A DNA stretch of 64,000 nt from positions 72,647 to 136,646 of the forward strand of contig CAZMIZ010000002.1 of assembly GCA_964566925.1 (NCBI GenBank), read 5' to 3'. The notes below the pieces were generated by a model. It saw nothing but the letters and a program-made list of their open reading frames with translations. It was not told where the DNA came from and searched no databases. The translations under genes were made by a program, and so were the position numbers. The DNA comes from an uncultured Gammaproteobacteria bacterium. Its GTDB lineage: Bacteria > Patescibacteriota > Microgenomatia > PFEM01 > DATLAM01. Below are positions 11,703 to 64,000 of this stretch, in pieces (the stretch's first letter is position 1; every line of letters starts with the position of its first letter).

Positions 11703-11708
11703 TGGTTG

Positions 11709-11782: not shown

Positions 11783-11800
11783 ATTTTAGCAAAAATTAGG

Positions 11801-11888: not shown

Positions 11889-11894
11889 TCGAAG

Positions 11895-16209: not shown

Positions 16210-16232
16210 CATTTGTCTAAGACGCAATTTAA

Positions 16233-37354: not shown

Positions 37355-37427
37355 GGCCCCGTCGTCTAGTGGCCTAGGACATCAGGTTTTCATCCTGAAA
37401 ACAGGGGTTCGATTCCCCTCGGGGTCA
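37355..37427 (+). tRNA. tRNA-Glu (anticodon TTC)
   Basis: GGCCCCGTCGTCTAGTGGCCTAGGACATCAGGTTTTCATCCTGAAAACAGGGGTTCGATTCCCCTCGGGGTCA. Anticodon stem TCAGG/CCTGA encloses loop TTTTCAT. The 3' 46 nt are overlapped on the opposite strand by the end of the recombinase ORF. Confidence 0.8.
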
Positions 37428-47162: not shown

Positions 47163-47494
47163 TGCCGATTCTGAAAAGCCCGGATGCGGTGTGTTAATCT
47201 CTCTCTTTCCTTTTTGAGATATTCAACTTGATTAGAAGTAAAACGTCCTGGGAATTTTTCACTATACGCAAGTTCCAGGTCTATTAAAATTCTACTCTCT
47301 CTATCAAAAGCCAAAGCCATCTTAAAAATGTCTGTTGGTTTAATTGGCTCTCCCGGGATCAACTCCTTGGCGTTAAACTTTTCTGACCGCTGATGAGCAA
47401 CCCGGAAATCTTTTAATATATTTTTGATTTTCTGATCAATTTTGTCGTTCACTTTCTGGTTTAGGAATGATGTTTTTAATATATTCATCGGCAA
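47138..47494 (-). CDS. Hypothetical protein (118 aa)
   Basis: Overlaps the upstream gene by 59 nt and the downstream gene by 25 nt, so it is likely co-transcribed. No motif. Confidence 0.35.
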   Translation of the reverse strand: MPMNILKTSFLNQKVNDKIDQKIKNILKDFRVAHQRSEKFNAKELIPGEPIKPTDIFKMALAFDRESRILIDLELAYSEKFPGRFTSNQVEYLKKERERLTHRIRAFQNRQWPSQFRK

Positions 47495-48830: not shown

Positions 48831-48976
48831 ATTTTTAATAAGACCACGGGTTGTAAATTGGCTCTAATTGTATTATATCTGTCTTGTGGTTACTTATCAT
48901 TTTATTATCTTCATTAAGTCTTTAAATTCTTGAGTAGCTTTATCGGACAAGGTCATGTTTGTTTTTCTTCTTGCAA

Positions 48977-49909: not shown

Positions 49910-50664
49910 CTTTCTTCTTTGCTAATCAATCTTCTATAAGCACAATATTCACAGTTCTCACTGGCAGAGGGGATTTTGTCGGAATCCAGACATTTCTTCA
50001 TGGCAAAAATAGCTGGCTCTACCCAGGAATCATCACCATTGTGAGCAATAATTTGCAACTCAAACTCTAACCGGGCGTCAAACTTGGGTCTATTTTTACC
50101 GGCATTGGCAAAAATAAAATAGCCGGTGTTGGAGACTTTAAAACCGCTCTGCTTGAAAATCCATTGATAAACCTCCATCTGTTTTTTATAGTTTTGTTTG
50201 TATTCATCCTCAAGCGAAATCTCCTGGGAAGTGCTAGTGGCTTTGTAGTCAACAATCAACAACTCTTCTTTTTTGTTTATCCAGAGATCATCCACGGCTC
50301 CAAAGACTAAAAAATTAGTCCCTTCATGAAGATACTGCTTGCCAACAAAATTATTCCGCCACTCCTCAATATCCGGATGAGAAAAGGGCACGGCGTCAAT
50401 CTGGTACTGCTTCATTAATTGATGCTGTTCACCATTTTTACGAAGAAGATCAAACTCGTTTTTCAAAAGCTGGTCCACGGCTGAGTTTAAAGCCCATCCT
50501 GGCATGCTGGGACGGCCCAAGCCTAAACGGCGGTCAAGATAAAAACAACGCGGACATTCCAAGAATAAATCAATCTTGCTCCGACTGATTTTAAAAGGCA
50601 CCTTCTGTCCAGGTTGATAAAGACCTCTCTGGCGTTTTTGGTATTTGTTCATATTAAGATACAA
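49906..50664 (-). CDS. Cas4/RecB-like PD-(D/E)xK nuclease with Fe-S cysteine cluster (PDDEXK_1-like)
   Basis: N-terminal CPRCFY. Motif II GAVDDLW. Motif III LIVDYKAT (D-x-K). QxxxY appears in KQMEVYQ. C-terminal C-x12-C-x2-C (CLDSDKIPSASENCEYC). Confidence 0.55.
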   Translation of the reverse strand: MYLNMNKYQKRQRGLYQPGQKVPFKISRSKIDLFLECPRCFYLDRRLGLGRPSMPGWALNSAVDQLLKNEFDLLRKNGEQHQLMKQYQIDAVPFSHPDIEEWRNNFVGKQYLHEGTNFLVFGAVDDLWINKKEELLIVDYKATSTSQEISLEDEYKQNYKKQMEVYQWIFKQSGFKVSNTGYFIFANAGKNRPKFDARLEFELQIIAHNGDDSWVEPAIFAMKKCLDSDKIPSASENCEYCAYRRLISKEER

Positions 50665-50673
50665 AGTTTACTT

Positions 50674-53600
50674 TTACTGTCTCAACCATTCTTGTTTATC
50701 GTCTAAGAAATTAGGATTACGTTCAATAAGTTTATTAAAAATTCTTGCCACTTGTTTGTTGCTCTTAGGTAGCTTTTTGAGGGGACCTATCGCGTCTGCG
50801 AGATCATTTGCTATTAAAACTTCTATTGGATAATCAGCTAAAAACTCAAACCATTTTAAATATTCCGTGGTTCCTTTGTGCTTAGCAACCGCAAGTAAAA
50901 TCTTTCCGTTATAGAAAAACGGCCACCAGTAAACGTTGGGAACATTTTCTTTGTCTTTTGCCGCTTCAATTAAAAACGGCTTTTCAACTTCAAGGCATTT
51001 CGTCCAAAGTTTAAAACAATCTTCAAAATAAGAATCGATGTAATCTTCAATAAATCTGTAAATATTCTCAAAAACCCGGTGCTCGTATTTATTTATTAAA
51101 ATTTTAAAGTAAGAAACCGCTAAGGCAACCGCTTCATCAACTGTCATCTGACTTTTTTCTTTAGGAGTCTTGCTTATTTCGTCCGTTAACCTATTGAATT
51201 GCCAAGACAAATCTGACTTGACTTCAGACGAACCATTTTTCAGCAAATCCACCAAGAGGGCTTTGAATGGTTTACTATCAAACTTTGTGATATCACCCCA
51301 AGGCCAGTTTTTAAAAGACTTACTCCTAAATTCGGCAAAAAATATGTATAAAGGCGATGCTTCCTGCATCACTTCATCAAAGCCAGTGTTTTTGAAAGTT
51401 TTAAGGACAAGCATTGCCCGTTTTTCATCCAGATTTCTCATGTATGTAAAAACCGTCGCCAAGTGCTTCATTACTACCTTAAGTTTGTGATTTTCTTTAT
51501 CCTTAAGCATAGCAAAAGCGATGCCTTCAATTTGTTCAGCTACTCTCATTGGCAAAAACCTTTCCTTGCTGTCTTCTGATAAAAACGTATGTCTATTTTT
51601 TACGAGTTCTATAAGAGGAATGCATGCCTGCACGCGTACATAGTAATTTGGGTCTTTTGATAGCTGTTTAACTAGAGGTAGTATTTCGGCAATATAATCT
51701 CGGCCATAGCGGATACAGAATTTTTGTAAAACCCAGGCGCAATAACCACGAACCGTGTTAAGTGTCGGATTATCATCACCCTCTATGACTTTTTGATGAA
51801 AATTAAAATCACCTTTTGGATCATCTGGATAGTTTTTTAATATCGGGTCACTGTCGTTGATAAATATCTTGACTAGCCAAAGTGCTTCATCAAAGTAGCG
51901 GAGTTTGGCCAATTTTTCGGCAAATTGTACAAGAGACTCACGAGAGTATCTGTGGCTGAAACGCCGCTCTATCCTTTTGATATCACCTAATCCTTCTAGT
52001 GTTGGTTTCAAGAACTCCTTATATACCTTAAGTAGAATATCCTTTTTCTCATCAGGGATGTTATAAAGCCCGCCACTAATTATTATTTGTTGATTGACAG
52101 TAAGTGTTTTCGCTTTATCTATCACTTTTAGTAATCCAATACCGACCGCAGGCTTTTTTTCAATAACCCTGGCAACTGCCTTGGCCACATCATAAGCGTC
52201 AAAGGAGACCAATTTGTTTTTAAAATAATCTGTTGACAGATAAGACTCCAACAGCCCAACAGCCTTATCAAAATTATTTTCTAAAAGCAGTAAAATCCCA
52301 TCTGTTGGGCCATAAGAACCAATTACATGACGGGTATTATATTTTGGGTTTTGAATCCAACTCATGATTACATCTCCTGCTTTTTTGGCAAGTTTAGACG
52401 AAGGTTTTGAAGCAATATTAAAAACTATTTGTTCTACAAATACATTTGTTGGCAGATTATCGAATTCCTTAAGACTTGCATCCACTAATTTCCATTTCTG
52501 TTCATCTGTAAATTCATCGTTGTTTATTCCTTGGAAAATTAAATCATTTTTCCAGGGGATACCTTTACGCATCTTCACAAAAGTCTTCAAAATTTCGAAA
52601 ATTTCTTCACTGAACTCACCGCCTTTATATTCCTCGAGGAGAATAGGTAGTGTGGCGCGGTTCAAGAAATCAGGGTTTTTTCTACTCACGTCTTTAAGAG
52701 AAAGGCATTTCTTTACAATAAAATCCAGCCCCTTCTCTTTATCTGCCTCGTATAGTTTTTTTAGCGATGGGGTTAATATCTGGGTTACGAAGTAGCGGTC
52801 AGTAATTGAGAATAAACTTCCTGATTGTGAAATTCCGCTACCCATATGCTCCCAACCTTCAAACTTAAGTTTTTTACCGAATTTTCTGTAGAATTTGTCA
52901 TATTGTTCAACGCACCTTTTAGTAAACCAGGGTATTCGTATTTCGGGATTACTTGAAACATACTTTCCTAAGATTTTAAATATGCTGGGTGGGGTGTAAT
53001 GCCAAAATCTACCGTCATCCGCAACCAAATTAAAATTGCTAACGATATAGTCGATAACATCATGTTTAAGTCTTTTATTTTTGCTTTTGTTGTAGAGTTC
53101 CTCCAGTAATTCGGCTGTCTTTTCCCTTTCCCATGTATCATCTCTTCTTCTTTTTACGTAAAGAAATTTGTCAATGGAATGTTTATAGACTTGCTTTATT
53201 ACCTGGAATACTTGCCCTTCGAGCGCCCTGTTTAATTCCAATATTTTCCCACTCAATTTCACTATGTCGTATTTAATAAACTCTTCCCTAAAATAGTTGG
53301 TTGCTTCGCCGATTATACTAAGAATAAAGTTAAGCGCGAATTCTTGATTTTCCTTATTATGGATATTATTTTCAAATATTTTAAAAAGCTCTATGGAGAA
53401 AGCACTTTGGTAGGTAGCCTTCCAAAGATTTAGCCAATCAGATAATTTTAAATTTTTTTCGCCTTCCAATTTTTGTAGAGCGAAGTGGTGAATTGAAGGA
53501 TTTGCATAAAGCTTAACCAGTTCGTTATTAATATTTAGCTTTTTACTCCTTGATTTTATCGATTTGATTATTTTTCTAACTTCTTTCTCTTCGATTTGCT

Positions 53601-54258
53601 TAACTTTCTCGTAGTCATAGCCATCATCTTCTAATATTTGGGCTTTTTTACTTTCAAGTAATTTCAAAAAGTCATCTCTATTGAGAGTTTCACCTTTTTG
53701 AGATCCCTGATAGACCCTGTCTTCGACCAGGCTTTTGGTAATTTCTTGTAACCGATGTTCAGGTACCCAGAAAGCCTCAGGATAACTCAAAACTTTCGCC
53801 ATGAGAATTTCAACCGCTTGGCGGTTTATATCCTGGCTTACTTCCCAAAATCTAAGTTGAGGTAGTAACTTTAGGTGTTTATCTTCAAATTTATGTTTTT
53901 TACTTTTAAGTTTCTTTTTAATATCTTTTTCAAAATATTTGAAATTTTCAATCAATCCTTTTGCCTCTTTGTTTACCTTTTTACAGACTATTAGAATTTC
54001 ATCTTGATCTGCCACTTGGGCGTGTTTAATCACTTTATCAAGAATCTTTCTTATATCTGCTAGGTTTATATTTCCCGCTTTTGACTCGCAGATTATTTTT
54101 CTTCCGTCTTCAAAAACAAGGTGAAAATCCTCAAGCTTTTTGCCCTCAAAACCTATATACCTGAAATCTTTACGAGTAACGTACTGTAGAAACAATGACA
54201 TAGCCGCCCAATTTTGAGCATTTATACCTTTTTGTAGCCGTTGTCCTTGAGTTGTCAT
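50674..54258 (-). CDS. Giant hypothetical protein (1194 aa) with N-terminal restriction-endonuclease-like motif and long helical-repeat body
   Basis: The N-terminal 70 aa contain LEDFHLVFEDGRKIICESKAG, fitting D-x13-E-x-K. No Walker A, HKD or phosphatase motif was found in the rest, which is mostly predicted alpha-repeat. Start overlaps the AlbA_2 gene stop by 4 nt. Confidence 0.45.
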   Translation of the reverse strand: MTTQGQRLQKGINAQNWAAMSLFLQYVTRKDFRYIGFEGKKLEDFHLVFEDGRKIICESKAGNINLADIRKILDKVIKHAQVADQDEILIVCKKVNKEAKGLIENFKYFEKDIKKKLKSKKHKFEDKHLKLLPQLRFWEVSQDINRQAVEILMAKVLSYPEAFWVPEHRLQEITKSLVEDRVYQGSQKGETLNRDDFLKLLESKKAQILEDDGYDYEKVKQIEEKEVRKIIKSIKSRSKKLNINNELVKLYANPSIHHFALQKLEGEKNLKLSDWLNLWKATYQSAFSIELFKIFENNIHNKENQEFALNFILSIIGEATNYFREEFIKYDIVKLSGKILELNRALEGQVFQVIKQVYKHSIDKFLYVKRRRDDTWEREKTAELLEELYNKSKNKRLKHDVIDYIVSNFNLVADDGRFWHYTPPSIFKILGKYVSSNPEIRIPWFTKRCVEQYDKFYRKFGKKLKFEGWEHMGSGISQSGSLFSITDRYFVTQILTPSLKKLYEADKEKGLDFIVKKCLSLKDVSRKNPDFLNRATLPILLEEYKGGEFSEEIFEILKTFVKMRKGIPWKNDLIFQGINNDEFTDEQKWKLVDASLKEFDNLPTNVFVEQIVFNIASKPSSKLAKKAGDVIMSWIQNPKYNTRHVIGSYGPTDGILLLLENNFDKAVGLLESYLSTDYFKNKLVSFDAYDVAKAVARVIEKKPAVGIGLLKVIDKAKTLTVNQQIIISGGLYNIPDEKKDILLKVYKEFLKPTLEGLGDIKRIERRFSHRYSRESLVQFAEKLAKLRYFDEALWLVKIFINDSDPILKNYPDDPKGDFNFHQKVIEGDDNPTLNTVRGYCAWVLQKFCIRYGRDYIAEILPLVKQLSKDPNYYVRVQACIPLIELVKNRHTFLSEDSKERFLPMRVAEQIEGIAFAMLKDKENHKLKVVMKHLATVFTYMRNLDEKRAMLVLKTFKNTGFDEVMQEASPLYIFFAEFRSKSFKNWPWGDITKFDSKPFKALLVDLLKNGSSEVKSDLSWQFNRLTDEISKTPKEKSQMTVDEAVALAVSYFKILINKYEHRVFENIYRFIEDYIDSYFEDCFKLWTKCLEVEKPFLIEAAKDKENVPNVYWWPFFYNGKILLAVAKHKGTTEYLKWFEFLADYPIEVLIANDLADAIGPLKKLPKSNKQVARIFNKLIERNPNFLDDKQEWLRQ

Positions 54259-55061
54259 AAGTTATGAATATCTTTAAAATTTTTAATAAAATCCTCGACT
54301 AGTGTTTCAAGATCATTGTGTAAACTATTTAGTCTTTCGTTATCGGTCGCACTAACAGATTCTCCGTAAGTCGCTCCTGCGCTAAAAATATTTCTAATAG
54401 CCTCATATAAACGGATAACTTTTCTCAATTTATCAAGTAGGTCGTTGAAGTCTTCACTATCCGCAAGTCTGTTTTCCAGATAACCCCTCAGCTGCAGAAA
54501 ATACATAAAATCGATGGCGTCTGGATTTAACTTGCATTGTTTTATCTTGTCTAACTCGTTCTCTAATTGATAGATGTGACTGGGGGAAAATTTATCTACT
54601 AAAAACAATTTTCTTAAAATGCTACCATCTTCTATTGGATCGCAAGTACCATTTCCTCTAACATAAACCTTCTTATCAGTTATATGCGGTCTATCAAAAT
54701 AAAGGGAAGGGTATATATACAAAAGATAAACATATTTGCTTTTTTGGGGCAACTTAATTTCATTTATATCCCAACTTTTGATAGGGATTGGGGGACCTAT
54801 ACCATTTTTAATTTTTCTGTTTACTTTTGTTTTCAGTTCTGTATCCCTATCTATACCTACTATTTTTATGTCATTATTTATTCCGTGCAAAATAAATCCA
54901 CCATTAGTGTTTGCAAAAGAACAAAATATCCTCCGTATTCTCTCCGTGTCTCCCAAAGAAATTCCTTTGAAGTCGTGATACCAGCCCTCCAAAACATTTG
55001 CACCATTTACAAATGATTTGATTTCACTAAACCCCCACGTTTTAACCTGGTCTATATTCAT
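54255..55061 (-). CDS. AlbA_2 (Schlafen-like, PF04326-type) domain protein
   Basis: RIRRIFCSFANTNGGFILHGINNDIKIVGI matches the AlbA_2 core a-f-A-N-t-x-G-G-x-l-x-x-G-V-x-D-x-x-x-i-v-G. 268 aa. Confidence 0.5.
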   Translation of the reverse strand: MNIDQVKTWGFSEIKSFVNGANVLEGWYHDFKGISLGDTERIRRIFCSFANTNGGFILHGINNDIKIVGIDRDTELKTKVNRKIKNGIGPPIPIKSWDINEIKLPQKSKYVYLLYIYPSLYFDRPHITDKKVYVRGNGTCDPIEDGSILRKLFLVDKFSPSHIYQLENELDKIKQCKLNPDAIDFMYFLQLRGYLENRLADSEDFNDLLDKLRKVIRLYEAIRNIFSAGATYGESVSATDNERLNSLHNDLETLVEDFIKNFKDIHNL

Positions 55062-57772
55062 TTTTTACTTTTTCCCTCAACTAGTTCTGTCTCCTCCGGC
55101 GTGAGGTTGTAGAGTTTGTAAATTAGTTGGTCGGTTTCATCCTGAAGTTTTGCAATTTCACTTCTCAATCTAGTCCATTTATCTGAATTTTGTGTGGTCT
55201 TTAATAATTCCTCATTAATTTTGATCATTCTATTCACAAGTTTAAAGAGACTTTTGTTTTTTGTATTGTATTTAGGAAGTGGTAAATTCCTTACATCGTT
55301 GACCAAAATTTTAGGGAATAACCCCTTTTTAGCTTTAGGAGATTTATTTAAATTATACCAACCCATTAGTGTAGAGTTCACAATACCCAGTAATACCTTC
55401 AGGGAATAATTGCTATTTTTCTTTTTTATAACATTAATAATAGAGGGTGTATTATAATACTCTTCTTTTGTCCAAGAACAAATTAGATTTACACCGGTAA
55501 TTTCTCGTACAAGAACCCTCTCCTCTCTAAAAAATTTTGGTTCTCTCGGTGCTGCAAGCCAATTTCCATAGCTTATCCATGACTTTCCATTCCACTTTAT
55601 AGAATAGCGCTTAACGTCACCACCCTTTAATTCCTTTTTGTAGGTAGCATCCTTTTTATGATCGGCATGCCAAATTCTATTTTTAATTGTATATTCATCA
55701 TGTCCTCGATATTTATCATAAGGAATTAAACCTTGAGAAACTTCAAAATAGTCGCTAACTCTAGCTCCTACTGATTCAATTTTCTTTAAAATGCGATCCT
55801 TTTCTGCAGAGTAATCAAATAGAGCTAGCCAATTATCTAACTCTTTCTCTAAAACCTCTTTTCCGAAGGCATTAAATAATTCAAACAATTGCTTAGTCCT
55901 GTCATACTTGAAGAAAGTGACATTCTTGCCGCTTTCGAACCTATCTTTTTTCGCTATTACAATACAGTTTCTAACAGAAGCGTCTTTGAAAGTCTGATCC
56001 TCTGTCAAATCTATAATTGAAATTATTTTGAAATTTTTAAGCAACTTCTCTCTGAAACCTTTTCCATAGAATGTCGATAAAAAGGTGTTGGGTATTATAT
56101 AAGATAAGCAACCTCCTTGCTTCAAAAGAGACAATCCCCTAGAAATGAAATAGATATAGCTTTCATAATCAGGAACCATAGGGTAGACATTACTTAAGTA
56201 TGACTTATCTTCTTGGGTAAAACTTGCCCCATAGGGAGGATTTCCTATGATTACGTCAAACCCTTCTTGTTTAAATACCTCTGGAAATTCTTCTTTCCAG
56301 TTGAAGGGTTTTTTCTCCTGCCAGTTTTTTCCAAAATACTTTTTGAGTTTCTTTTCGGTGCCAGAAATAAGCGAGTTGCCAACTTTAGTGTTGTCGGAAA
56401 GTAACGGTAGTTTATGGTTTGGTTCAAGCGCTTTTAGCAGAAGATTTAAGCGGGCGATTTCAATGGCTTGAGAATCAAGGTCAACACCATAAATATTATT
56501 CTTTAAGATATTGTATTTTCTGAAAGCTGCATGCGGTCCAGATTTCTCTTGAGCTTTTTCTTCGGCTAGTTTCTCATCCAGCAAAGCAAAGGCCTTAATA
56601 AGAAAGGAGCCGCTACCACAAGCAGGGTCCAGAATTTTGATATTCTCAATTTCTTTTAATGACTTTTCTTTTAAAGCAACACCAAGCGTATTTTGAACAA
56701 TATAATCAACGATATGAGCCGGTGTATAGTAAATTCCTTGTTTCTTCCTTTTAGCCCCATTCACTAATCCTTTTCCTTGAACAAAACCGAGATACTGTTC
56801 ATAAATGGAACCTAAAACATCAGCGTCGATGGCGGCAAAATTATATTTAACTCCTCTTTCTTTATCCGCATAAAGATCATTAATGATTTGCTCAAAAGGA
56901 GTCCCTTCGGTGTCGAGCTTCTCACAAAGATGCTCCAAAAACAGATTGCTATTATATTTTCTGTCAAAATCTTTAAAGATTGGCTTTAAAGCCTGCATGA
57001 AGTTATCGGGTTTTCGATTATGGGTAATCCACTTTCGAAGAGCAGGCCAAAGTATTTGGGGTTCAAGTTTACGATCTTCACAAGTCCGAATGAAGATAAA
57101 TCTATCCAAAACTCTTTGAACCGCTTCATCAACATCGGATTCATCAACTTCGGGATTATATCTCTTGAAGTATTTTCTTAAAAGCTCTCTCCATTCGAGG
57201 AGATCAGCCGCCAGTTTTTCACTAACTTTAAGCCTTTTAGCTTTGATGCCCCACTTCTCAGCTTGTTTATCAAGCTCACCTTTCTCAATGCTTTCCCTGG
57301 AGAGAAACCAAAGGTCATCCAGGCGAGTAAGGAATTTATCATAAGCAAATTCTAAATTTGGTTTTGGGGTGTCCACTAACCATTCTGAATTAAAAAGCTT
57401 TAAGCCTTTGAAATCGGTTAAAACTACCCAAGGAATACCTTTGTTCCAGCCATAGGTGACTGCCTGCTTTGCCCATTCAACTTTATCAAGGTCAACTTTT
57501 AGGGATTTTGCTTCAAGGAGAAATTGGGGAATGTTGTTAAGACGAAAAGAATAATCAACTTTTCCCTTAACAGCAACTTCTTCTTCAACTACCTCTCGGT
57601 CAGTAAATTCGTTGTAGACATCCCAACCTAAGGCTTGAAAGAATGGCTCAATGAAAACTCTTCGAGTATCTGCCTCATCATATCTTCTTAACTGTTTTGC
57701 CTTTTTTACTCTTTCATATTTTTCAATGAGCTTTTTGATTTCCTTTTTAGCCTGTTCTCTAGAAGTCGCCAT
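55058..57772 (-). CDS. Type IIG restriction-modification enzyme (fused PD-ExK endonuclease + gamma-class N6-adenine methyltransferase + target-recognition domain)
   Basis: N-terminal nuclease VDYSFRL...LLEAKSL (D...EAK). MTase motif I ILDPACGSGSFL. Motif IV IIGNPPYGASF. About 300 aa of C-terminal target-recognition domain. 904 aa total. Confidence 0.7.
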   Translation of the reverse strand: MATSREQAKKEIKKLIEKYERVKKAKQLRRYDEADTRRVFIEPFFQALGWDVYNEFTDREVVEEEVAVKGKVDYSFRLNNIPQFLLEAKSLKVDLDKVEWAKQAVTYGWNKGIPWVVLTDFKGLKLFNSEWLVDTPKPNLEFAYDKFLTRLDDLWFLSRESIEKGELDKQAEKWGIKAKRLKVSEKLAADLLEWRELLRKYFKRYNPEVDESDVDEAVQRVLDRFIFIRTCEDRKLEPQILWPALRKWITHNRKPDNFMQALKPIFKDFDRKYNSNLFLEHLCEKLDTEGTPFEQIINDLYADKERGVKYNFAAIDADVLGSIYEQYLGFVQGKGLVNGAKRKKQGIYYTPAHIVDYIVQNTLGVALKEKSLKEIENIKILDPACGSGSFLIKAFALLDEKLAEEKAQEKSGPHAAFRKYNILKNNIYGVDLDSQAIEIARLNLLLKALEPNHKLPLLSDNTKVGNSLISGTEKKLKKYFGKNWQEKKPFNWKEEFPEVFKQEGFDVIIGNPPYGASFTQEDKSYLSNVYPMVPDYESYIYFISRGLSLLKQGGCLSYIIPNTFLSTFYGKGFREKLLKNFKIISIIDLTEDQTFKDASVRNCIVIAKKDRFESGKNVTFFKYDRTKQLFELFNAFGKEVLEKELDNWLALFDYSAEKDRILKKIESVGARVSDYFEVSQGLIPYDKYRGHDEYTIKNRIWHADHKKDATYKKELKGGDVKRYSIKWNGKSWISYGNWLAAPREPKFFREERVLVREITGVNLICSWTKEEYYNTPSIINVIKKKNSNYSLKVLLGIVNSTLMGWYNLNKSPKAKKGLFPKILVNDVRNLPLPKYNTKNKSLFKLVNRMIKINEELLKTTQNSDKWTRLRSEIAKLQDETDQLIYKLYNLTPEETELVEGKSKK

Positions 57773-57871
57773 TTGGCTTTAATTTTACCACAATACCCCT
57801 CTCAACTAAATAGAATTTGACTTTTACTTTACAATTTGCTATAAGCTAGTTAGTTGAAAGTCAGCGTTTGG

Positions 57872-57894
57872 CTGCCCGAGAGGGCAGTTTTTTT
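57872..57894 (+). terminator. Terminator-like hairpin CTGCCC-GAGA-GGGCAG + T7 upstream of the pilin gene
   Basis: 6-bp GC-rich stem and T7 tract on the plus strand, 33 nt before the AAGGAGGTGAG SD of the pilin gene. No plus-strand gene lies upstream, so it may act as an insulator or attenuator. Confidence 0.35.
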
Positions 57895-57926
57895 ATTTAT
57901 CTCCTGCCGATTAGCAAAGGAGGTGA

Positions 57927-58256
57927 GTGATGAGAATCTTGCTGACGCTGCAATCTTTTGTCTTAACGGCTTTAATTTTTGCTGCCCAAGTTCAGGCCCA
58001 AGCTGACGACGTTTCCAAAGTCCAAAACTTCATGACCAACATTATTCAGATCATGGTCACTCTGGCCGGAGTTCTGGCCGCCCTTTTCTTTGTCTGGGGC
58101 GGGGTCGGCTATATTACCAGTACAGGCAACCCCGAGAATTTGGAAAAATCAAAAAAGACGATTTTTTACTCGGCTATCGGCTTGGCCGTTACCCTGGGAG
58201 CCTATGTCCTGGTCAATATTGTCACCCAGACGGCGCAGAGTGCTTTTGGCCAATAA
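57927..58256 (+). CDS. TrbC/VirB2-family pilin precursor
   Basis: Signal peptide plus two hydrophobic helices. IMVTLAGVLAALFFVWGGVGYITSTGNPENLEKSKKTI is the typical VirB2/TrbC layout. A strong SD (AAGGAGGTGAG) precedes it. Confidence 0.6.
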   Translation: MMRILLTLQSFVLTALIFAAQVQAQADDVSKVQNFMTNIIQIMVTLAGVLAALFFVWGGVGYITSTGNPENLEKSKKTIFYSAIGLAVTLGAYVLVNIVTQTAQSAFGQ

Positions 58257-58272
58257 TTAACGACAAAAAACA

Positions 58273-59559
58273 ATGGTTGTCCTAGCAGTTTTTTTAACTG
58301 CCTTAGTCTTCCTTCTCAATCCTCCTTTGGCCTTCGCCCTTGAACAATATCCCGAAATCCAATCTTTCACCGGCGACCTGATCGCCAACCTTTCCATTCT
58401 GGCTTCGGTTTTCGTCCTCTTCTTCCTCATCCGCGGCGGCTATTTGTATCTCACCTCCAGCGGCAATCCGGAGGCCCTGGAAGACGCCAAAATAACCATC
58501 AGGAATGCCCTCATCGGCTTGGTTTTAATTCTTTCGGCCAGTACTTTCTCTTCAATCCTAACGACTTCCTTCACCACCCCTTCGCCAGGCACCGAGACCA
58601 GCCAGATCGAACTGGCGCCATTGGAAACGGTCGAACCCGAAGACGGTCTCACCCAGGTCTTGACCGAAGCGATTGCCGGCTTTTTAAGGAACATCATCCA
58701 GAGCGCCACCAAGCCCTTGACCGACAGCGTCATTTCCTTTTTAACCACCACGCCTTTGGTGGCCACCAATCGGTCCATCTTCAATTTTTGGCTGATCATT
58801 CTGGGAATCACCGATTCGCTTTTTGTCTTGGTGATTATCCTCCTCGGCTTTCAAGTGATGAGCGCCACCACTTTCGGTTTCGAAGAGGTGAAGCTGAAAA
58901 AACTACTCCCTCGAATTGGCCTGGCTTTCCTTTTGGCCAACGTTTCCATTTTTATGGTCGACTGGGTGCTGCGGTGCAACAATGCCTTGGTTGCCGCCGT
59001 TCTCAATGCCACCGGCGGCTTGAACCAGGCCTGGATTGAGAACGCCTTTAACCCGCCGGTGATGACCATGGAGAGCGTCCTGGTGATTACCCTGATTTTT
59101 GGCGTCCTCTTTATTATCATCACCGTCGTCCTGCTCCTTTTTTATATCAGCCGTTTAATCATTATTGCCTTGGGGGCGGTCCTTTCGCCTTTAATCTTTA
59201 TGCTTTGGGCTATTCCCAGGCTGGCCGATTTTTCCGAAATTGCCATCAAAAGCTATCTGACGACGATTTTTTCCGTTTTTATCCATGTGGTGGTCATCCA
59301 GCTGGCGGCCTCATTCTTAACCCTGCCAGGCGAGTCGGGAGGCTCGGGCCTGATGGCCGTCCTCATCGGCATCGGCTTGATGTTTACCTTGATTAAAACC
59401 CAATCCGTCGTTTATCAATTGGTTTTTTACAACACCGGCCGGGCGGTCTTTAAAAAGGTGGGCGGCCAAATCGTCAACGTTCTTCAGGCCAAGCAGACCG
59501 AAGAAGCGGCTCTTGGCGAAGCCCAGGTTAAAACGCCGAGAAAGGTAGTCAACGCATGA
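58273..59559 (+). CDS. VirB6/TrbL-like polytopic membrane protein with N-terminal pilin-like domain
   Basis: N-terminal LASVFVLFFLIRGGYLYLTSSGNPEALEDAKITI is paralogous to the upstream pilin (GG-x-x-Y-x-T-S-x-G-N-P-E-x-L-E-x-x-K-x-T-I). At least six further TM helices follow, as in VirB6. Confidence 0.5.
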   Translation: MVVLAVFLTALVFLLNPPLAFALEQYPEIQSFTGDLIANLSILASVFVLFFLIRGGYLYLTSSGNPEALEDAKITIRNALIGLVLILSASTFSSILTTSFTTPSPGTETSQIELAPLETVEPEDGLTQVLTEAIAGFLRNIIQSATKPLTDSVISFLTTTPLVATNRSIFNFWLIILGITDSLFVLVIILLGFQVMSATTFGFEEVKLKKLLPRIGLAFLLANVSIFMVDWVLRCNNALVAAVLNATGGLNQAWIENAFNPPVMTMESVLVITLIFGVLFIIITVVLLLFYISRLIIIALGAVLSPLIFMLWAIPRLADFSEIAIKSYLTTIFSVFIHVVVIQLAASFLTLPGESGGSGLMAVLIGIGLMFTLIKTQSVVYQLVFYNTGRAVFKKVGGQIVNVLQAKQTEEAALGEAQVKTPRKVVNA

Positions 59560-60056
59560 AAACAAACCCCATTCCGGCTCAAGTAACCACGGTCGAGGAT
59601 AAAATCGCCGCCAATCTGAGCCTGACCCAGCTCATTCTCCTTTTGGCCCCGCTTTTTATCAGCGTCTTTGTTTTTGCCGTCCTGCCCGAGAGGATGTATT
59701 TTAGCCTTTATAAAATCATTCTTATAATTCTGTCTCTGATTATTTTCTTAACCCTGGCCATTAGGGTCAAGGAACGAATTGTTTTGACCTGGCTGATTCT
59801 GCTGGTCGCTTACTATTTAAGACCCCATCTTTTTCTCTTTGACAAAAATGATGATTACCTGCGAAAGGAAAAACACCCGCCGGACGACGAGATTGAAAAA
59901 ACCGCCAGTCGCCAACCAATTCCGGCCAAAAAAGAAAAAAAGAATCACTTATCAATTCTGAATCTGATTCAGCTGGAGAACCTGATGAACGCCAGAAATA
60001 CCAGAATGTCAATTAAATTCAGTCAAAAAAGGAGGCTCAGATTAAACCGCTTTTAA
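59556..60056 (+). CDS. Small two-TM membrane protein, VirB3/PrgI-like position
   Basis: Two TM helices (LILLLAPLFISVFVFAVL and IILIILSLIIFLTLAI). Start is coupled to the VirB6-like gene stop. The call rests on position and topology only. Confidence 0.3.
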   Translation: MKTNPIPAQVTTVEDKIAANLSLTQLILLLAPLFISVFVFAVLPERMYFSLYKIILIILSLIIFLTLAIRVKERIVLTWLILLVAYYLRPHLFLFDKNDDYLRKEKHPPDDEIEKTASRQPIPAKKEKKNHLSILNLIQLENLMNARNTRMSIKFSQKRRLRLNRF

Positions 60057-60112
60057 ATAATAAAGTCTCCTCCAGGAGACAAATTAAAATCAAGGAAGTC
60101 CGAGACGGGATT

Positions 60113-60667
60113 TTGGTTCTGCCGGAAAACAAATATCGGGTGGTGGTGGAAACCTCGGCGATTAACTTTGAACTTAAAAGTGAGGCCGAACAAGACGCTT
60201 TGATTGATAATTTCCAAAATTTCATCAATGCCCTGCCCTGCCCGATCCAGATTTTAATCCGGGTCCGCGAAGTGGAGATTGACCACTATCTCGAGGTTTT
60301 CAACAGCAGAAATAATCACGAAACCAGCAAGCTTTACCGCCAGCAAATCAAACACTACGGCCAGTTTGTCAAGAAATTGGTTAAGGGCAATAAAATCCTT
60401 TCCCGGCGCTTTTACCTGGTCATTCCCTACGAACCGGAGCCGGAAAAAAACGACTTTAATTTGATTAAGGAGCAAATCAATCTCAGCCTGGATATCATTG
60501 CCAAGGGCTTGGAGCGGCTGGGGATGAAAACCAGAAACCTCAACACCCTGGAAATTCTCGAACTTTTTTACAGTTTTTATAATCCCGGGGGCTCTAAAAC
60601 CCAGCCCATCAAGGAGAAAACTTATCAGCTTTTAGCAAAAAATAAAGATGTTATTCAAACTCCCTAA
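60113..60667 (+). CDS. virB4: VirB4/TraC-family ATPase, N-terminal domain (separate ORF, or 5' part of a frameshifted virB4)
   Basis: VVETSAINFELKSEAEQDALIDNFQNFINALPCPIQILIRV is the conserved VirB4 N-domain pattern. It ends at 60667, overlapping the next ORF by 20 nt in a different frame. Confidence 0.55.
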   Translation: MVLPENKYRVVVETSAINFELKSEAEQDALIDNFQNFINALPCPIQILIRVREVEIDHYLEVFNSRNNHETSKLYRQQIKHYGQFVKKLVKGNKILSRRFYLVIPYEPEPEKNDFNLIKEQINLSLDIIAKGLERLGMKTRNLNTLEILELFYSFYNPGGSKTQPIKEKTYQLLAKNKDVIQTP

Positions 60668-62408
60668 CTTTAAAAAAGGCAGAAAACGGGGTCAAAAAAC
60701 CATCGAGCTCTCGTTTGGCGAACAGGATCAGGTGGACTTAATCTCCTATGACGGCCTTGAGGAGTACCAAAACTACCTCAATCTGGGCGGCAGATATCTG
60801 CGGACGCTTTTCATTTCCGGCTACCCTTACGTGGCGACCACCGGCTGGCTGAACAACCTCGTTAATTTCAATCACGACATCGACATTGCCTATCACCTGG
60901 AGCAGATCGATTCCAAGATCTCCCTGCCCAAGCTTAATCGAAAAATTACCGAATTGGAATCAACCCGAAGAGTCCTCCAGCAGCAGGGAAAAATCATCGG
61001 CCCGGAAGTGCTTGACCCCTTGAAATCGGCCGTTGATTTGAAAAACAGAATCCTGCGGGGCCAGGAAAAGCTTTTCCAGGTCTCCATCTACATCCACTTG
61101 ACGGCCGACTCTCTGGTGGAATTGGAAAAACTGACCACCTTGGCGGAGACGGTGCTGGCGACGAGATTGTTCTACACGAAAACGGCGGTTTTCCAGCAGC
61201 TTGAGGGCCTCCAGTCCATCCTGCCTCGAGCGGAAAACCTGCTTGACCAAAAAAGAAATTTGGACAGTTCTTCGGCGGCCCTCACTTTTCCTTTTACTTC
61301 ATCCGAGCTGGTCCAGGAAACCGGTATTTTATACGGCGTCAATCTTTCCAACAATTCCTTGGTGATGATTGACCGCTTCAGTCTCAATAACGCCAACAGC
61401 ATCGTTTTTGCCCAATCCGGCTGCGGCAAGAGCTACGCGGCCAAGGTGGAAATCCTGCGCCAATTGATTCAAAAGACGAAAGTGATCGTCATCGACCCGG
61501 AGCGCGAATACCAGCAGCTTGCCCGCTCTTTAGACGGCACCTACATCAAACTCTCGGCCAAATCCAAGGAAAAGATCAATCCTTTTGATTTCTCGGTCAG
61601 CTCCTTTGGCCAGGGCAACAACCTGGTCGAGCATATCCAGGATTTGACGGAGATCGTTTCCTTAATGGTCGAAGGCCTGACTTCGGAAGAAAAAGCGATT
61701 GTTGATAAAGCGATTGTCAAAACTTACAAAAACCTTGGCTGGGCAATCCACGGCCGAAAAAAAGGCAAAAGATACCCGTTGATGAAGGATTTATACCAAA
61801 CCTTGAAAAAAGACCGGCAGAGAAAACTCTGCGTCCGCCTGGAAAAATACGTCAAAGGATCGCTGGCCAATGTCTTCAATCAGCAAACCAATATCAAGCT
61901 CGACAACCGCTTGATTATTTTTGACATTAAGGATCTGCCCGAATCTTTACGCCAAATCATGATTCTGATTATCTCCAATTATGTTTATAACCAGGTCAAA
62001 TCCGATCCCCAAAAACGATTGCTGGTGATTGACGAAGCCTGGATTCTTTTGGAGCATGAGGAAAGCGCCCGCTTTATTGCCGGCTTGACCAGAAGAGCGC
62101 GCAAATACTACCTGGGGGTGAACATCATCTCCCAGGCGGCCAACGACTTTCTGGGCAACGAATACGGCCAGGCGATTGCCTCCCAAGCTTCGCTGCGGAT
62201 TCTGATGCGCCAAGACACGACGACGATTAAAAAAGTGGTTGAGGAGTTCAAGCTCAGCGAATACGAGCAGAAATTCCTGCTGACTTGCGATAAAGGCGAG
62301 GCGATTGTCATTGCCGATCAAAACCATGTCGCCCTGAAAGTGGTCGCCTCGGAAAAAGAACACCCCCTGATCACCACTGACCCAGCCGAAAGATACTCCC
62401 TGCGATGA
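60648..62408 (+). CDS. virB4: VirB4/TraC-family ATPase, central and C-terminal ATPase domains
   Basis: Walker A AQSGCGKSYAAK. Walker B LLVIDEAWILLE. Also YLGVNIISQA and the middle-domain RYLRTLFISGYPYVATTGWL. Confidence 0.7.
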   Translation: MLFKLPNFKKGRKRGQKTIELSFGEQDQVDLISYDGLEEYQNYLNLGGRYLRTLFISGYPYVATTGWLNNLVNFNHDIDIAYHLEQIDSKISLPKLNRKITELESTRRVLQQQGKIIGPEVLDPLKSAVDLKNRILRGQEKLFQVSIYIHLTADSLVELEKLTTLAETVLATRLFYTKTAVFQQLEGLQSILPRAENLLDQKRNLDSSSAALTFPFTSSELVQETGILYGVNLSNNSLVMIDRFSLNNANSIVFAQSGCGKSYAAKVEILRQLIQKTKVIVIDPEREYQQLARSLDGTYIKLSAKSKEKINPFDFSVSSFGQGNNLVEHIQDLTEIVSLMVEGLTSEEKAIVDKAIVKTYKNLGWAIHGRKKGKRYPLMKDLYQTLKKDRQRKLCVRLEKYVKGSLANVFNQQTNIKLDNRLIIFDIKDLPESLRQIMILIISNYVYNQVKSDPQKRLLVIDEAWILLEHEESARFIAGLTRRARKYYLGVNIISQAANDFLGNEYGQAIASQASLRILMRQDTTTIKKVVEEFKLSEYEQKFLLTCDKGEAIVIADQNHVALKVVASEKEHPLITTDPAERYSLR

Positions 62409-63010
62409 ATCCCTTTTTAGTAACGACTCTTTTTTCTTTCAAGAAAGAGTTTTTTTATGTTCTCCTGGCTTTCCTTCTGGTCATTTCAATGCCCCTTGTC
62501 GGGGTGATTATTCTTACCCGAACCGGTTTGGATTTTGTTTCCGAACGATTGGTGGCGATTAATGAGGTCACCAACGAAGTTCAAATCCTAAATCCGCTAG
62601 ACGGCAGCGTCTACAAAACCATCAAGGGTCCCTTCGTCTGGCCGGTGACGGGAATCATTACCCTCGAGTTCGGCGAATCAAGCCGCTGGCAGCTCTTCCA
62701 TACCGGAATTGACATCGCCAATCCCGAAGGTAAAAATGGCGACCCGATCACCCCCTTTATGCCCGGGACGGTTGTTTATGCTGGTCAAATCTCCTGGGGG
62801 TTTGGCAAACACGTAATCATCGATCACGGCGATAATCTCGCTTCCATCTACGCCCATTTGGAGACCATCTGGGTGGAAGTAGGCCAGGCAGTCAAACCGG
62901 GCGAGATTATCGGCACCGAGGACAGCACCGGCTGGTCAACCGGACCGCATCTGCACTTTCAAATAAACGTCTTTGGCATCCCGGTTAATCCGAGGATATT
63001 TTTGAAGTAG
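62405..63010 (+). CDS. M23 family metallopeptidase (LytM-like) with N-terminal TM anchor
   Basis: HTGIDIA (HxxxD), YAHL and HLHFQI (HxH) are M23 zinc ligands. TM is VLLAFLLVISMPLVGVIIL. Start is coupled to the virB4 stop. Confidence 0.75.
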   Translation: MNPFLVTTLFSFKKEFFYVLLAFLLVISMPLVGVIILTRTGLDFVSERLVAINEVTNEVQILNPLDGSVYKTIKGPFVWPVTGIITLEFGESSRWQLFHTGIDIANPEGKNGDPITPFMPGTVVYAGQISWGFGKHVIIDHGDNLASIYAHLETIWVEVGQAVKPGEIIGTEDSTGWSTGPHLHFQINVFGIPVNPRIFLK

Positions 63011-63041
63011 AGCCATGCTGATAATTCTTATTATTGGAGCC

Positions 63042-63938
63042 TTAACTTTTCAACCAAAGCCAGATTTGATTTTTAAGTCTTTGGGTCAGCTCAAAGCTGT
63101 TTGCGTGCGAAAGGTAACCCAGATAAGATTGAAGGGATTGTTCGAAAGCAGGGGAACCAATCCTCTCTCTTAATTTTTCAAAGATTCTTCTCTTCGTTTT
63201 GGTTCTCGGCAGACGGTAATGCGGCAGAACAACATAGCCTAAAAATTCGATTCCCCAGTCAAGTTTTCGGAAAATAATTTTTTTGGAATGCATTTCAAGC
63301 TTCAACTCCTTTTCTAAAAACTCCTGCAAGGGTCCAATGTAGCTTTCCAGCTCTTTTTTGTTTTGGGAGAGAAAGACAAAATCATCCGCATAACGAAGAT
63401 AATATTTAACCTTCAGTTGATGCTTGACCAAATGGTCAAGCCTGTTCAGATAAATGTTGGCAAATATTTGACTGGTTAAATTGCCAAGAGGAATCCCTTG
63501 GCCGCGCCCCCTGTCTGAATTAAAACTATGTATAACCTGAGAAAGAAGCCGGAGAATATTCTTGTCTTTAATTCGCTCCCGAAGCAGGTTTTTAAGGATC
63601 TGGTGGTCAACACTGGCAAAGAATTTCTTGATATCACACTTTAGAGACCAACAATTTCTCGTATAATTTTGGGAAACAATTCTCGCAAACTTTTCAAGCC
63701 TGGCGACGGCCTTATGCGTCCCTTTGTCAAGACGGCAAGAATAAGAATCAAAAATAAAGGTATGGTCGGTGGCTTTATACAAGAAGGTGTAAAGCAAATG
63801 ATGCAAAATTCTGTCTTCTACGCCTGCCTTGTGGATGTGCCTCTTCTTGGGGTCGTGAACATAAAAGGATTGGTAGTCACCATGTTGATAAGTTTGGGAA
63901 ATAAGTTTTCGGCGAAGATTAAAGAGGTTATCCTCCAA
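63042..63938 (-). CDS. Reverse transcriptase of the diversity-generating retroelement (DGR) type
   Basis: RT motifs read FDSYSCRLDKGTHKA, GIPLGNLTSQIFANIYLN (DGR-typical I/LGxxxSQ in place of QGxxxSP) and YLRYADDFVFL (YxDD). 298 aa with no maturase or endonuclease domains. Confidence 0.55.
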   Translation of the reverse strand: MEDNLFNLRRKLISQTYQHGDYQSFYVHDPKKRHIHKAGVEDRILHHLLYTFLYKATDHTFIFDSYSCRLDKGTHKAVARLEKFARIVSQNYTRNCWSLKCDIKKFFASVDHQILKNLLRERIKDKNILRLLSQVIHSFNSDRGRGQGIPLGNLTSQIFANIYLNRLDHLVKHQLKVKYYLRYADDFVFLSQNKKELESYIGPLQEFLEKELKLEMHSKKIIFRKLDWGIEFLGYVVLPHYRLPRTKTKRRIFEKLRERIGSPAFEQSLQSYLGYLSHANSFELTQRLKNQIWLWLKS

Positions 63939-64000
63939 ATTTAGTTCAAACGCCTGAACGTCTCTCTTTCTCTTTTTGCCTTTCTTAAATCCGTCCCACG

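What the first reader, a model, noticed from the sequence alone, without database searches (positions are those of the whole stretch)
63042..64000. DGR-type reverse transcriptase at the window edge; template and variable repeats expected nearby
The 298-aa RT carries the DGR-diagnostic LGNLTSQ motif in place of the retroviral/group-II QGxxSP. It also has YADDFVFL and the SYSCRLDKGTHKA block, and lacks maturase or endonuclease domains.

DGRs are common in CPR genomes and diversify surface or ligand-binding proteins. The RT's upstream region, where the template repeat (TR) usually lies, runs off the window at 64000. Only a 31-nt gap separates the RT from the opposite-strand M23 gene, so the TR and the target gene with its variable repeat (VR) are most likely to the right.
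Basis: partly seen in the sequence, partly recalled or inferred. Interest (0 to 1): 0.65.

Follow-up and report, generated by a model that had tools for sequence, protein, structure and literature searches.

The report
DGR reverse transcriptase cut by window edge
The gene at the window's right edge is an intact reverse transcriptase of the well-known diversity-generating retroelement type common in CPR bacteria, so it is ordinary, but its relatives (and apparently this copy) carry a slippage-prone simple repeat that looks like an on/off switch for the hypermutation machinery.

Summary
A minus-strand ORF at 63042 to beyond 64000 encodes a reverse transcriptase with IPLGNLTSQ, YADD and SYSCRLDKGTHKA. 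It is open to the window edge. The full protein (P0001) has 337-352 aa, not 298.

Its best solved relative is the Bordetella phage BPP-1 DGR enzyme bRT (139 bits; group II RT 64). In 59 of 80 homologous CPR loci, and in all of the closest relatives' loci fetched, the RT sits in a DGR cassette. The layout is target gene with 3' VR, then TR, then reverse-oriented avd, then RT. Of 1152 TR/VR mismatches, 93% fall at TR adenines. This is the published CPR "B3" architecture.

The window holds no TR, VR, avd or target. They are predicted at about 64.1-65.9 kb, but the contig could not be fetched, so this is inference.

Verdict: a new member of a known kind.

Side finding: a G/C run or dinucleotide repeat lies in the 5' end of avd in 45 of 78 relatives. 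It is 250-fold enriched there. It puts avd out of frame in 30 of 45 loci. Its length varies between otherwise identical contigs in 3 of 4 loci tested. This suggests phase-variable DGR activity. P0001's N-terminus implies a (TG)~16 tract here too.

The parts
63042..64000 (-). 3' 957 nt (318 codons plus stop) of the DGR-type reverse transcriptase gene. The 5' end (about 19-34 codons) lies beyond the window edge.
   Evidence: ORF and translation. Pfam RVT_1 E = 3e-21. 100% identical to P0001, 352 aa, from a 138,421-nt NCBI contig. Best PDB hit is 8ub7_A, which is BPP-1 bRT: 138.8 bits, E = 2.4e-39.
63468..63497 (-). RT motif 4, GIPLGNLTSQ: the DGR signature [I/V/L]GxxxSQ. The Leu aligns with bRT Ile181.
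   Evidence: Coordinates, alignment to bRT, motif definition and the role of I181 from PMC7826257.
63834..63854 (-). DPKKRHI segment. The Arg aligns with bRT Arg74, a promoter of adenine mutagenesis.
63369..63392 (-). Catalytic motif 5, YADDFVFL.
63708..63746 (-). SYSCRLDKGTHKA block (RT motif 2/2a region). It aligns with bRT YACRPDKGTHAG.
63011..63041 (.). 31-nt spacer between the convergent stop codons of the M23 peptidase gene and the RT gene. It marks the right-hand synteny breakpoint of the conserved T4SS-like block.
   Evidence: BLAST against L081-L084 ends at window position 63004.

Best explanation
The ORF is the reverse transcriptase of a diversity-generating retroelement of the CPR/Patescibacteria lineage. 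This is architecture 'B3' (TR-(avd)-RT) of Wu et al. 2018 and DGR clade 2 of Roux et al. 2021.

Shown here: the gene is intact over its in-window part, has all the catalytic and DGR-signature motifs, and belongs to a protein family whose members almost always sit in complete DGR cassettes.

Inferred by homology: just beyond the window lie the following parts.
- The RT start, at about 64055.
- A (TG)n tract.
- An avd gene on the + strand, at about 64.1-64.45 kb.
- A template repeat of about 125 nt on the minus strand, at about 64.44-64.62 kb.
- The 3' end of a 200-300-aa target gene carrying the variable repeat, at about 64.9-65.05 kb.

Inferred mechanism, established for the BPP-1 prototype: the RT-Avd complex reverse transcribes TR RNA and misincorporates opposite adenines. 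The resulting cDNA replaces VR. This rewrites the C-terminal ligand-binding codons of the target protein.
For: Motifs and intact ORF.

Similarity to known RTs:
- bRT is the best solved relative: 138.8 bits over residues 23-333, against 64 bits for the group II RT GsI-IIC.
- 8ub7_A is 100% identical to BPP-1 brt.
- R74 is conserved and the I181 position is a conservative Leu.

Cassettes in relatives:
- 59 of 80 homologous loci have a TR/VR pair, and 1072 of 1152 mismatches (93%) fall at TR adenines.
- The distance from TR end to RT start has a median of 404 nt (range 349-578). The distance from VR start to TR start has a median of 458 nt.
- Of the 21 loci without a pair, 18 are cut by a contig end within 1.5 kb upstream.
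- The closest relatives (69-71% identity) all have pairs, with 23/24, 17/20 plus 6/6, and 21/24 mismatches at adenines.
- An Avd core lies on the opposite strand between TR and RT in 78 loci. It matches NCBIfam DivGenRetAVD at 87.7 bits (cut-off 80) and Pfam bAvd.
- VR lies at the extreme 3' end of the target gene.
- The family is active in nature. In 7 near-identical contigs, 21 of 37 variable columns fall in the 92-nt VR, giving 3 VR haplotypes.

[quoted passage not shown] Clade 2 is restricted to Patescibacteria (PMC8144416).
Against: No TR, VR, avd or target gene of this locus was seen.
- The window contains none.
- The contig beyond 64000 could not be fetched.
- Database searches for an Avd or a target protein from the 138,421-nt contig did not list one.

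Three of 62 relatives with enough flank lack a detectable pair: L036, L054 and L064.

Close relatives of the neighbouring T4SS block have no DGR at this position. The cassette is therefore a local acquisition and could be incomplete.
Confidence: 0.88

Rival explanations
1. A solo or decayed DGR-type RT. The gene is of DGR descent, but this locus has lost or never had a functional TR/VR/avd set, so nothing is diversified.
For: L036, L054 and L064 have at least 5 kb upstream and no detectable pair. The cassette is absent at this site in the nearest relatives of the flanking T4SS block. No Avd or target protein from the 138,421-nt contig surfaced.
Against: The ORF is full length and all its motifs are intact. 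59 of 62 relatives with adequate flank, and all of the closest relatives, have complete cassettes. The protein searches list only the top 120 of more than 5000 hits, or depend on shared 5-mers, so their silence is weak evidence.
Confidence: 0.08
2. A non-DGR defence-type RT (retron, DRT/UG or Abi class). On this reading it would be part of the defence island that lies to the left at 47-58 kb.
For: The neighbourhood holds Shedu, a PD-(D/E)XK nuclease, a Schlafen/AlbA_2 protein and an MmeI-like R-M gene. PADLOC and NCBIfam give sub-threshold hits to RT_UG17, Drt3a and a retron RT.
Against: All NCBIfam hits are far below their cut-offs: retron 65 against 235, Drt3a 80 against 200. bRT is by far the best solved relative. 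Homologues sit in TR/VR cassettes and not next to msr/msd or effector genes. The RT is separated from the defence genes by the 5-kb T4SS block.
Confidence: 0.02
3. A fragment of a group II intron, i.e. an intron-encoded protein.
For: The best NCBIfam hit by score is TIGR04416, group II RT/maturase, at 138 bits. Several database copies are named 'reverse transcriptase/maturase family'.
Against: 138 bits is under half of the 300-bit cut-off. Pfam finds no maturase (X) or endonuclease domain. Rfam finds no group II ribozyme domain at E <= 1 in 61500-64000, although D5/D6 should follow the ORF. The stop codon lies 31 nt from a convergent gene. Motif 4 is LGxxxSQ, not QGxxxSP.
Confidence: 0.01
4. 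This rival concerns the side finding only. The simple-sequence tract at the avd/RT junction is a neutral or artefactual feature (assembly error, or a tolerated linker) and not a regulatory switch.
For: Homopolymer lengths are error-prone in assemblies. The frame offsets of the nearest upstream ATG are close to uniform, at 10/16/18. That would also be expected if the ATG were irrelevant. The upstream ATGs are complements of conserved His codons of the partner gene, so they could be fortuitous.
Against: The tract is 250-fold enriched at this one site: 46 of 63 tracts in 1.07 Mb. Different repeat types (G/C, TG, GA, CT) occupy the same position. Dinucleotide tracts, which are less error-prone, differ by one unit between otherwise identical contigs, and each allele recurs in several independent assemblies. 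Tract-free loci always have an ATG directly at the Avd core (28 of 28), whereas tract loci almost never have a start between tract and core. Called Avd proteins read through the tract with a conserved leader, M-x(3-9)-(HT)n.
Confidence: 0.35

Closest known systems
Bordetella phage BPP-1 DGR (brt, avd, TR, mtd-VR)
   Same: The RT aligns with bRT over almost its full length (138.8 bits). It shares the IG/LGxxxSQ motif, Arg74, YxDD and the THxG block. Relatives have Avd, a TR of about 125 nt, and a VR at the 3' end of the target with adenine-specific changes.
   Different: Sequence identity is low. In the relatives, avd lies between TR and RT on the opposite strand, whereas BPP-1 has avd-TR-brt co-directional. 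The host is cellular CPR rather than a phage. The targets have no Pfam match and only a weak C-type-lectin-like fold signal.
CPR/Patescibacteria DGRs: architecture B3 of Wu et al. 2018 (PMC5758913); DGR clade 2 of Roux et al. 2021 (PMC8144416)
   Same: The host group is the same (all hits are Levy-, Woese-, Curtiss- and similar CPR bacteria). The TR-(avd)-RT layout is the same in relatives. The targets are uncharacterised.
   Different: For this locus only the RT is visible. The simple-sequence tract in the avd 5' end is not mentioned in the papers I could read. Paul et al. 2017 is not held.
Group II intron RTs (e.g. GsI-IIC, PDB 6ar1)
   Same: They share the RT fingers and palm with motif 2a. 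This is the second-best class of solved relatives, at 64 bits.
   Different: There is no maturase/X domain, no ribozyme RNA and no QGxxxSP motif. The score is under the family cut-off.
Simple-sequence contingency loci (SSR phase variation, as in Neisseria, Haemophilus, Campylobacter)
   Same: This applies to the side finding. A G/C homopolymer or a dinucleotide tract lies inside the 5' coding region. Both in-frame and out-of-frame states occur. Alleles differing by one unit are found in otherwise identical DNA.
   Different: The gated genes are the accessory protein of a hypermutation machine and, in one subgroup, its RT, not a surface antigen or a methyltransferase. Switching has not been observed directly. 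The hosts are CPR bacteria.

Membership tests
Diversity-generating retroelement (DGR) | RT with motif 4 [I/V/L]GxxxSQ in place of QGxxxSP, plus YxDD | tested here: met
   IPLGNLTSQ at 63468-63497 and YADD at 63381-63392. Motif definition from PMC7826257.
Diversity-generating retroelement (DGR) | RT closer to characterised DGR RTs than to other RT classes | tested here: met
   bRT (8ub7_A) scores 138.8 bits against 64 for group II and 47 or less for retron-type RTs. 8ub7_A is BPP-1 brt. All NCBIfam non-DGR RT models score below their cut-offs.
Diversity-generating retroelement (DGR) | TR/VR near-repeat pair whose mismatches fall at adenines of one copy | not testable with these tools
   The expected site is beyond 64000 and the contig could not be fetched. 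The window itself has none. Relatives: 59 of 80 loci have a pair, with 93% of 1152 mismatches at TR adenines, and all of the closest relatives' loci have one.
Diversity-generating retroelement (DGR) | Accessory gene avd next to the RT | not testable with these tools
   None in the window (tblastn). It is present in 78 relatives and passes NCBIfam DivGenRetAVD at 87.7 bits against a cut-off of 80.
Diversity-generating retroelement (DGR) | Target gene with VR at its 3' end in a variation-tolerant (C-type lectin or Ig) fold | not testable with these tools
   There is no target homologue in the window. In relatives the VR ends 1-30 nt before the stop codon. The fold of the L085-type target is inconclusive: pLDDT 88.6, best Foldseek E = 0.24, with C-type-lectin domains only at E of about 5.
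CPR DGR architecture B3 (TR-(avd)-RT) | avd between TR and RT, on the opposite strand | not testable with these tools
   For this locus it is inferred only. In relatives avd is on the minus strand in 51 of 55 ORF calls, and the HMM core is found there in 78 loci. Definition from PMC5758913.
Group II intron (intron-encoded RT) | Ribozyme domains flanking the ORF; maturase X (and En) domain; passes TIGR04416 | tested here: not met
   No Rfam hit at E <= 1 in 61500-64000. Pfam finds RVT_1 only. TIGR04416 scores 138 bits against a cut-off of 300.
Retron | msr/msd structured RNA directly upstream of the RT; retron RT model | tested here: inconclusive
   The upstream region is off the window. The retron RT model NF038233 scores 65.5 bits against a cut-off of 235, so it is not met. 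Relatives have avd and TR upstream instead.
SSR-mediated phase variation (side finding, avd/RT junction) | Slippage-prone tract inside the coding 5' end, with in-frame and out-of-frame states | tested here: met
   45 loci have a tract within 20 nt of the Avd core: 12 ON, 30 OFF, 3 with an alternative start. The 28 tract-free loci all have an ATG at the core. This was tested in relatives. For this locus the tract is inferred from P0001's N-terminus MCVCVCVCVCV.
SSR-mediated phase variation (side finding, avd/RT junction) | Repeat-number polymorphism between otherwise identical sequences | tested here: met
   P0067 locus: tracts of 13 nt (3 contigs), 15 nt (10) and 19 nt (1), plus a 17-nt ON allele seen as protein P0132. 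The P0093 and P0048 loci each show a one-unit difference, and the P0079 locus is invariant.
SSR-mediated phase variation (side finding, avd/RT junction) | Reversible switching of expression within a clonal population | not testable with these tools
   This needs read-level or experimental data.

The most novel reading that the evidence does not exclude
CPR DGRs, this one included, may be phase-variable. A slippage-prone tract lies in the 5' coding end of avd: a G/C run of 7-13 nt, or (TG), (GA) or (CT) repeats. In one subgroup it lies in the same-register antisense overlap of the avd and RT 5' ends. Gain or loss of one repeat unit then switches Avd alone, or Avd and RT together, between in-frame and out-of-frame. 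Targeted hypermutation would therefore run only in a stochastic minority of cells. That would be one mutational switch controlling another mutator.
Probability: 0.42. Interest if true: 0.72.

Novelty: new member of a known kind. Interest (0 to 1): 0.4.

Why it matters
As a DGR RT in a CPR genome the finding adds one more member to a large, well-described class. DGRs are significantly enriched in CPR (PMC8144416).

The comparative work it prompted may matter more. How DGR activity is regulated is largely unknown. Roux et al. reported that the CPR clade shows lower-than-average activity.

A hypermutable repeat that leaves avd out of frame in about two thirds of assembled loci would give a simple, testable explanation. 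It could be tested from existing metagenome reads.

Tried and rejected
**Extending the contig.** Exact look-ups of P0001 and of the window's M23 protein found no record. An exact 34-mer scan of the JGI metagenomes found nothing. The GTDB genome scan returned only relatives of 65% identity or less.

**Looking for the cassette's proteins from the same 138,421-nt contig.** An Avd profile search listed 120 of 5455 hits, none from that contig. A search with the target of the closest relative gave only 13 hits, none from that contig. Both results are uninformative and do not count as negative evidence.

**Close relatives of the M23/T4SS block (L081-L084).** They have no RT after M23, so they cannot stand in for the missing sequence.

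**M23 peptidase as a convergent DGR target, as in L023 or L044.** Rejected. Its 3' end is 89.5% conserved with non-DGR relatives and encodes the catalytic HxH motif. No TR-profile hit was found.

**Statistical coupling of RT-ON and Avd-ON.** Fisher p = 0.057. Counting TTG and GTG codons adds noise. I then saw that in that subgroup the coupling follows from geometry.

**Paul et al. 2017 (CPR DGRs).** Not held in the library, so I could not check it for prior mention of the tract.

Full report
**1. The observation**

The minus-strand ORF listed at 63042-63938 (298 aa from a TTG) is really open up to the last full codon of the window, 63998, giving 318 codons. It contains these motifs:
- DPKKRHI at 63834-63854
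- SYSCRLDKGTHKA at 63708-63746
- GIPLGNLTSQ at 63468-63497
- YADDFVFL at 63369-63392

Pfam finds only RVT_1 (E = 3e-21) and no maturase or endonuclease domain. The M23 peptidase gene (62405-63010, + strand) is convergent and leaves a 31-nt gap.

A database protein identical over all 318 residues, P0001, is 352 aa and comes from a 138,421-nt NCBI contig. The window's M23 protein comes from a contig of the same length. P0001 begins MCVCVCVCVCVTLLT-MNIHSDYQ. The real start is probably the second Met, which gives about 337 aa with the ATG at about 64055. The gene caller ran upstream through a (TG)n tract.

**2. What kind of RT it is**

The best solved relative is chain 8ub7_A, at 138.8 bits and E = 2.4e-39, aligned over residues 23-333. 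A 118-aa stretch of that chain is 100% identical to brt of Bordetella phage BPP-1, the prototype DGR. The next classes score far lower: group II RT GsI-IIC at 64 bits, and retron-type, G2L4, Drt2/3 and retron RTs at 47 bits or less.

In that alignment the window protein keeps Arg at the bRT R74 position. It has Leu at the I181 position, the first residue of the signature [I/V/L]GxxxSQ. Both residues promote adenine mutagenesis in bRT (PMC7826257).

Every non-DGR RT model in NCBIfam scores far below its cut-off: group II 138 against 300, Drt3a 80 against 200, retron 65 against 235. Rfam finds nothing at E <= 1 in 61500-64000, so no group II ribozyme domains follow the ORF. Across the whole window it finds only 16 tRNAs.

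**3. The family context**

The protein has thousands of homologues, all from CPR bacteria where named, and the top 120 are 61-71% identical. I fetched 80 genomic loci of relatives at 48-66% identity.

Self-comparison found a repeat pair with strongly adenine-biased mismatches in 59 of them. In total 1072 of 1152 mismatches (93%) fall at adenines of one copy. Of the 21 loci without a pair, 18 are cut by a contig end within 1.5 kb upstream of the RT. Only L036, L054 and L064 have room and no pair.

The layout is very regular:
- a target gene of about 200-300 aa with the VR ending 1-30 nt before its stop codon;
- about 300 nt further on, the TR (median 124 nt);
- then 349-578 nt (median 404) to the RT start.

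That last interval holds an ORF on the opposite strand in 51 of 55 loci. An HMM of its core matches the minus strand in 78 loci. The ORF passes NCBIfam's DivGenRetAVD model (87.7 bits against a cut-off of 80) and Pfam bAvd. In 5 loci the VR lies downstream of the RT in a convergent gene.

The three closest RT relatives I could fetch (69-71% identity; loci L085, L086/L087, L088) all have the same cassette. Their adenine-mismatch counts are 23/24, 17/20 plus 6/6 (two targets), and 21/24.

[quoted passage not shown] It is also the Patescibacteria-restricted DGR clade 2 (PMC8144416).

The family is active in nature. In seven near-identical contigs from different samples that encode the same RT (P0067), 21 of 37 variable columns in 2.6 kb fall within the 92-nt VR. 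They define three VR haplotypes.

**4. This locus**

The window contains no DGR part other than the RT:
- The only repeat families in the 64 kb are tRNA-related.
- An nhmmer profile of 56 family TRs finds nothing at E <= 10.
- tblastn with 55 target and 55 Avd proteins finds nothing.

The downstream-VR layout is therefore excluded, and the M23 gene is not a target.

From the family geometry I predict the following positions beyond the window (inference):
- the (TG)n tract at about 64.07-64.10 kb;
- avd on the + strand up to about 64.45 kb;
- TR on the minus strand at about 64.44-64.62 kb;
- VR at about 64.92-65.04 kb.

I could not confirm this. The contig is not on record, is not in the JGI metagenomes and is not a GTDB representative. 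Protein searches did not surface its Avd or target.

I put 0.88 on a complete DGR, about 0.08 on a solo or decayed RT, and very little on a retron, defence RT or group II intron.

**5. Context**

The block 57814-63004 holds T4SS-type pilins, a TrbL-like protein, PrgI, a TraC-like protein, a VirB4/TraG-type ATPase and the M23 peptidase. It is 89.5% identical to a block on contigs from other samples. There the block is followed not by an RT but by an HTH protein, a PLD nuclease, an integrase and a tRNA. Synteny ends exactly at the M23 stop codon.

To the left lie an MmeI-like R-M gene, a Schlafen/AlbA_2 gene, a PD-(D/E)XK nuclease and a Shedu SduA gene. The DGR therefore sits at the edge of a variable, island-like region.

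**6. Side finding: a simple-sequence tract at the avd/RT junction**

*Occurrence.* In the relatives, the short region between the Avd core and the RT start very often holds a G/C run of 7-13 nt, or a (TG), (GA) or (CT) repeat. Of 63 such tracts in 1.07 Mb, 46 lie in the 150 nt upstream of the RT. That is 4.0 per kb against 0.016 per kb elsewhere. The window itself has none in 64 kb.

*Position relative to the avd start.* On the avd strand the tract lies 0-20 nt 5' of the conserved core in 45 of 78 loci. The 28 tract-free loci all have an ATG directly at the core. The tract loci almost never have a canonical start between the tract and the core.

An ATG 5' of the tract is in frame with the core in 12 loci (ON) and out of frame in 30 (OFF). 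Three loci have an alternative start.

Called Avd proteins of this subclade read through the tract with a leader M-x(3-9)-(HT)2-5-x(3-6)-LDIPIF. P0129 and P0130 differ only by one HT unit.

*Length polymorphism.* In 14 contigs of the P0067 locus with identical flanks, the tract is 13 nt in 3, 15 nt in 10 and 19 nt in 1. All of these are out of frame. Protein P0132, which has the same Avd, corresponds to 17 nt and is in frame. Contigs carrying RT P0093 and RT P0048 also differ by one GT unit. Those carrying P0079 do not.

*A subgroup where the tract also lies in the RT reading frame.* In 21 loci, mostly poly-G, the RT has no start codon 3' of the tract. There the upstream RT ATG is the complement of the Avd His codon in PI(L/F)H. 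The Avd ATG is the complement of the RT His codon in S-H-x-F-E. The two divergent ORFs therefore overlap in the same codon register, and one indel restores or destroys both. I checked this by hand for L010, L021, L042, L063 and L072 (both ON) and for L009, L037 and L066 (both OFF; the same +1 or -1 change fixes both). This part is inference from sequence.

*This locus.* In the (TG)n subclade to which the window's RT belongs, the RT has its own ATG after the tract, so only avd would be gated. P0001's N-terminus implies about 16 TG units at this locus.

*Literature.* I found no mention of this tract in the papers I could search or read. Paul et al. 2017 was not available. The idea fits the report that clade 2 DGRs show lower-than-average activity.

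*Rivals.* The alternatives are assembly error, a tolerated linker, transcriptional slippage in place of DNA slippage, or non-canonical initiation after the tract. I give the phase-variation reading, as a novel mechanism, a probability of about 0.4.

**7. Verdict**

The rest of the cassette is predicted, not shown, just to the right. On its own this is a new member of a known kind and of modest interest. The repeat tract at the avd/RT junction is the part worth following up.

Noticed in passing
Just beyond the window (about 64068-64100, inferred from P0001); L001-L111 junctions upstream of the RT, e.g. L001 9999-10030, L089 1486-1500: A G/C homopolymer (7-13 nt) or a (TG), (GA) or (CT) repeat lies in the 5' end of the reverse-oriented avd gene in 45 of 78 relatives. 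It is 250-fold enriched at this site. avd is out of frame in 30 of 45 loci. One-unit length alleles occur between otherwise identical contigs in 3 of 4 loci tested. This points to a possible phase-variable switch of DGR activity.
   Followed up: yes
L010, L021, L042, L063, L072 (ON); L009, L037, L066 (OFF): 100 nt upstream of the RT: In the poly-G subgroup the RT and avd 5' ends overlap antisense in the same codon register. Each gene's ATG is the complement of a conserved His codon of the other. One tract-length change therefore shifts both genes together.
   Followed up: partly
L034 2534-2553, L047 3780-3805, L058 919-930: Three loci that lack the junction tract carry a (GA)n repeat inside the RT coding sequence, about 540-590 nt after the start and just before motif 4. 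This may be a second place for repeat-mediated switching.
   Followed up: no
L089-L097, columns 596-687 of the alignment (VR): Contigs from different samples that encode the identical RT (P0067) carry three different VR haplotypes, while the rest of the 2.6 kb is almost invariant. This shows natural DGR activity. Contigs with different tract lengths can share one VR haplotype.
   Followed up: partly
window 57814-63004: A T4SS-like block (two pilins, TrbL-like, PrgI, TraC-like, VirB4/TraG-type ATPase, M23 peptidase) is 89.5% identical to JGI and ENA contigs L081-L084. Synteny breaks at both ends. In those contigs an HTH gene, a PLD nuclease, an integrase and a tRNA follow where the window has the RT. 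This suggests a mobile or island-borne module.
   Followed up: partly
window 47436-57772 (minus strand): A run of defence-type genes: Shedu SduA (47436-48830), a PD-(D/E)XK nuclease (49906-50664), a 1194-aa protein with no Pfam match (50674-54258), Schlafen/AlbA_2 (54255-55061) and an MmeI/Eco57I-like R-M fusion (55058-57772).
   Followed up: no
window 10963-11978 (minus strand): A dense array of 11 tRNA genes within about 1 kb. There are further tRNAs at 3995-4081, 16138-16304, 36851-36922 and 37355-37427.
   Followed up: no
window 37355-37433 vs L081 14238-14316: A tRNA gene in the window is 96% identical over 79 nt to a stretch next to the integrase and NYN genes of the related element in L081. 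It is a possible integration site for that element.
   Followed up: no
L086 3099-3195 and 4505-4568 vs TR 4965-5075: One TR matches two VRs in two paralogous target genes (31% identical proteins), so this is a two-target DGR. Targets across the family are very diverse (25-42% identity) and have no Pfam match.
   Followed up: partly
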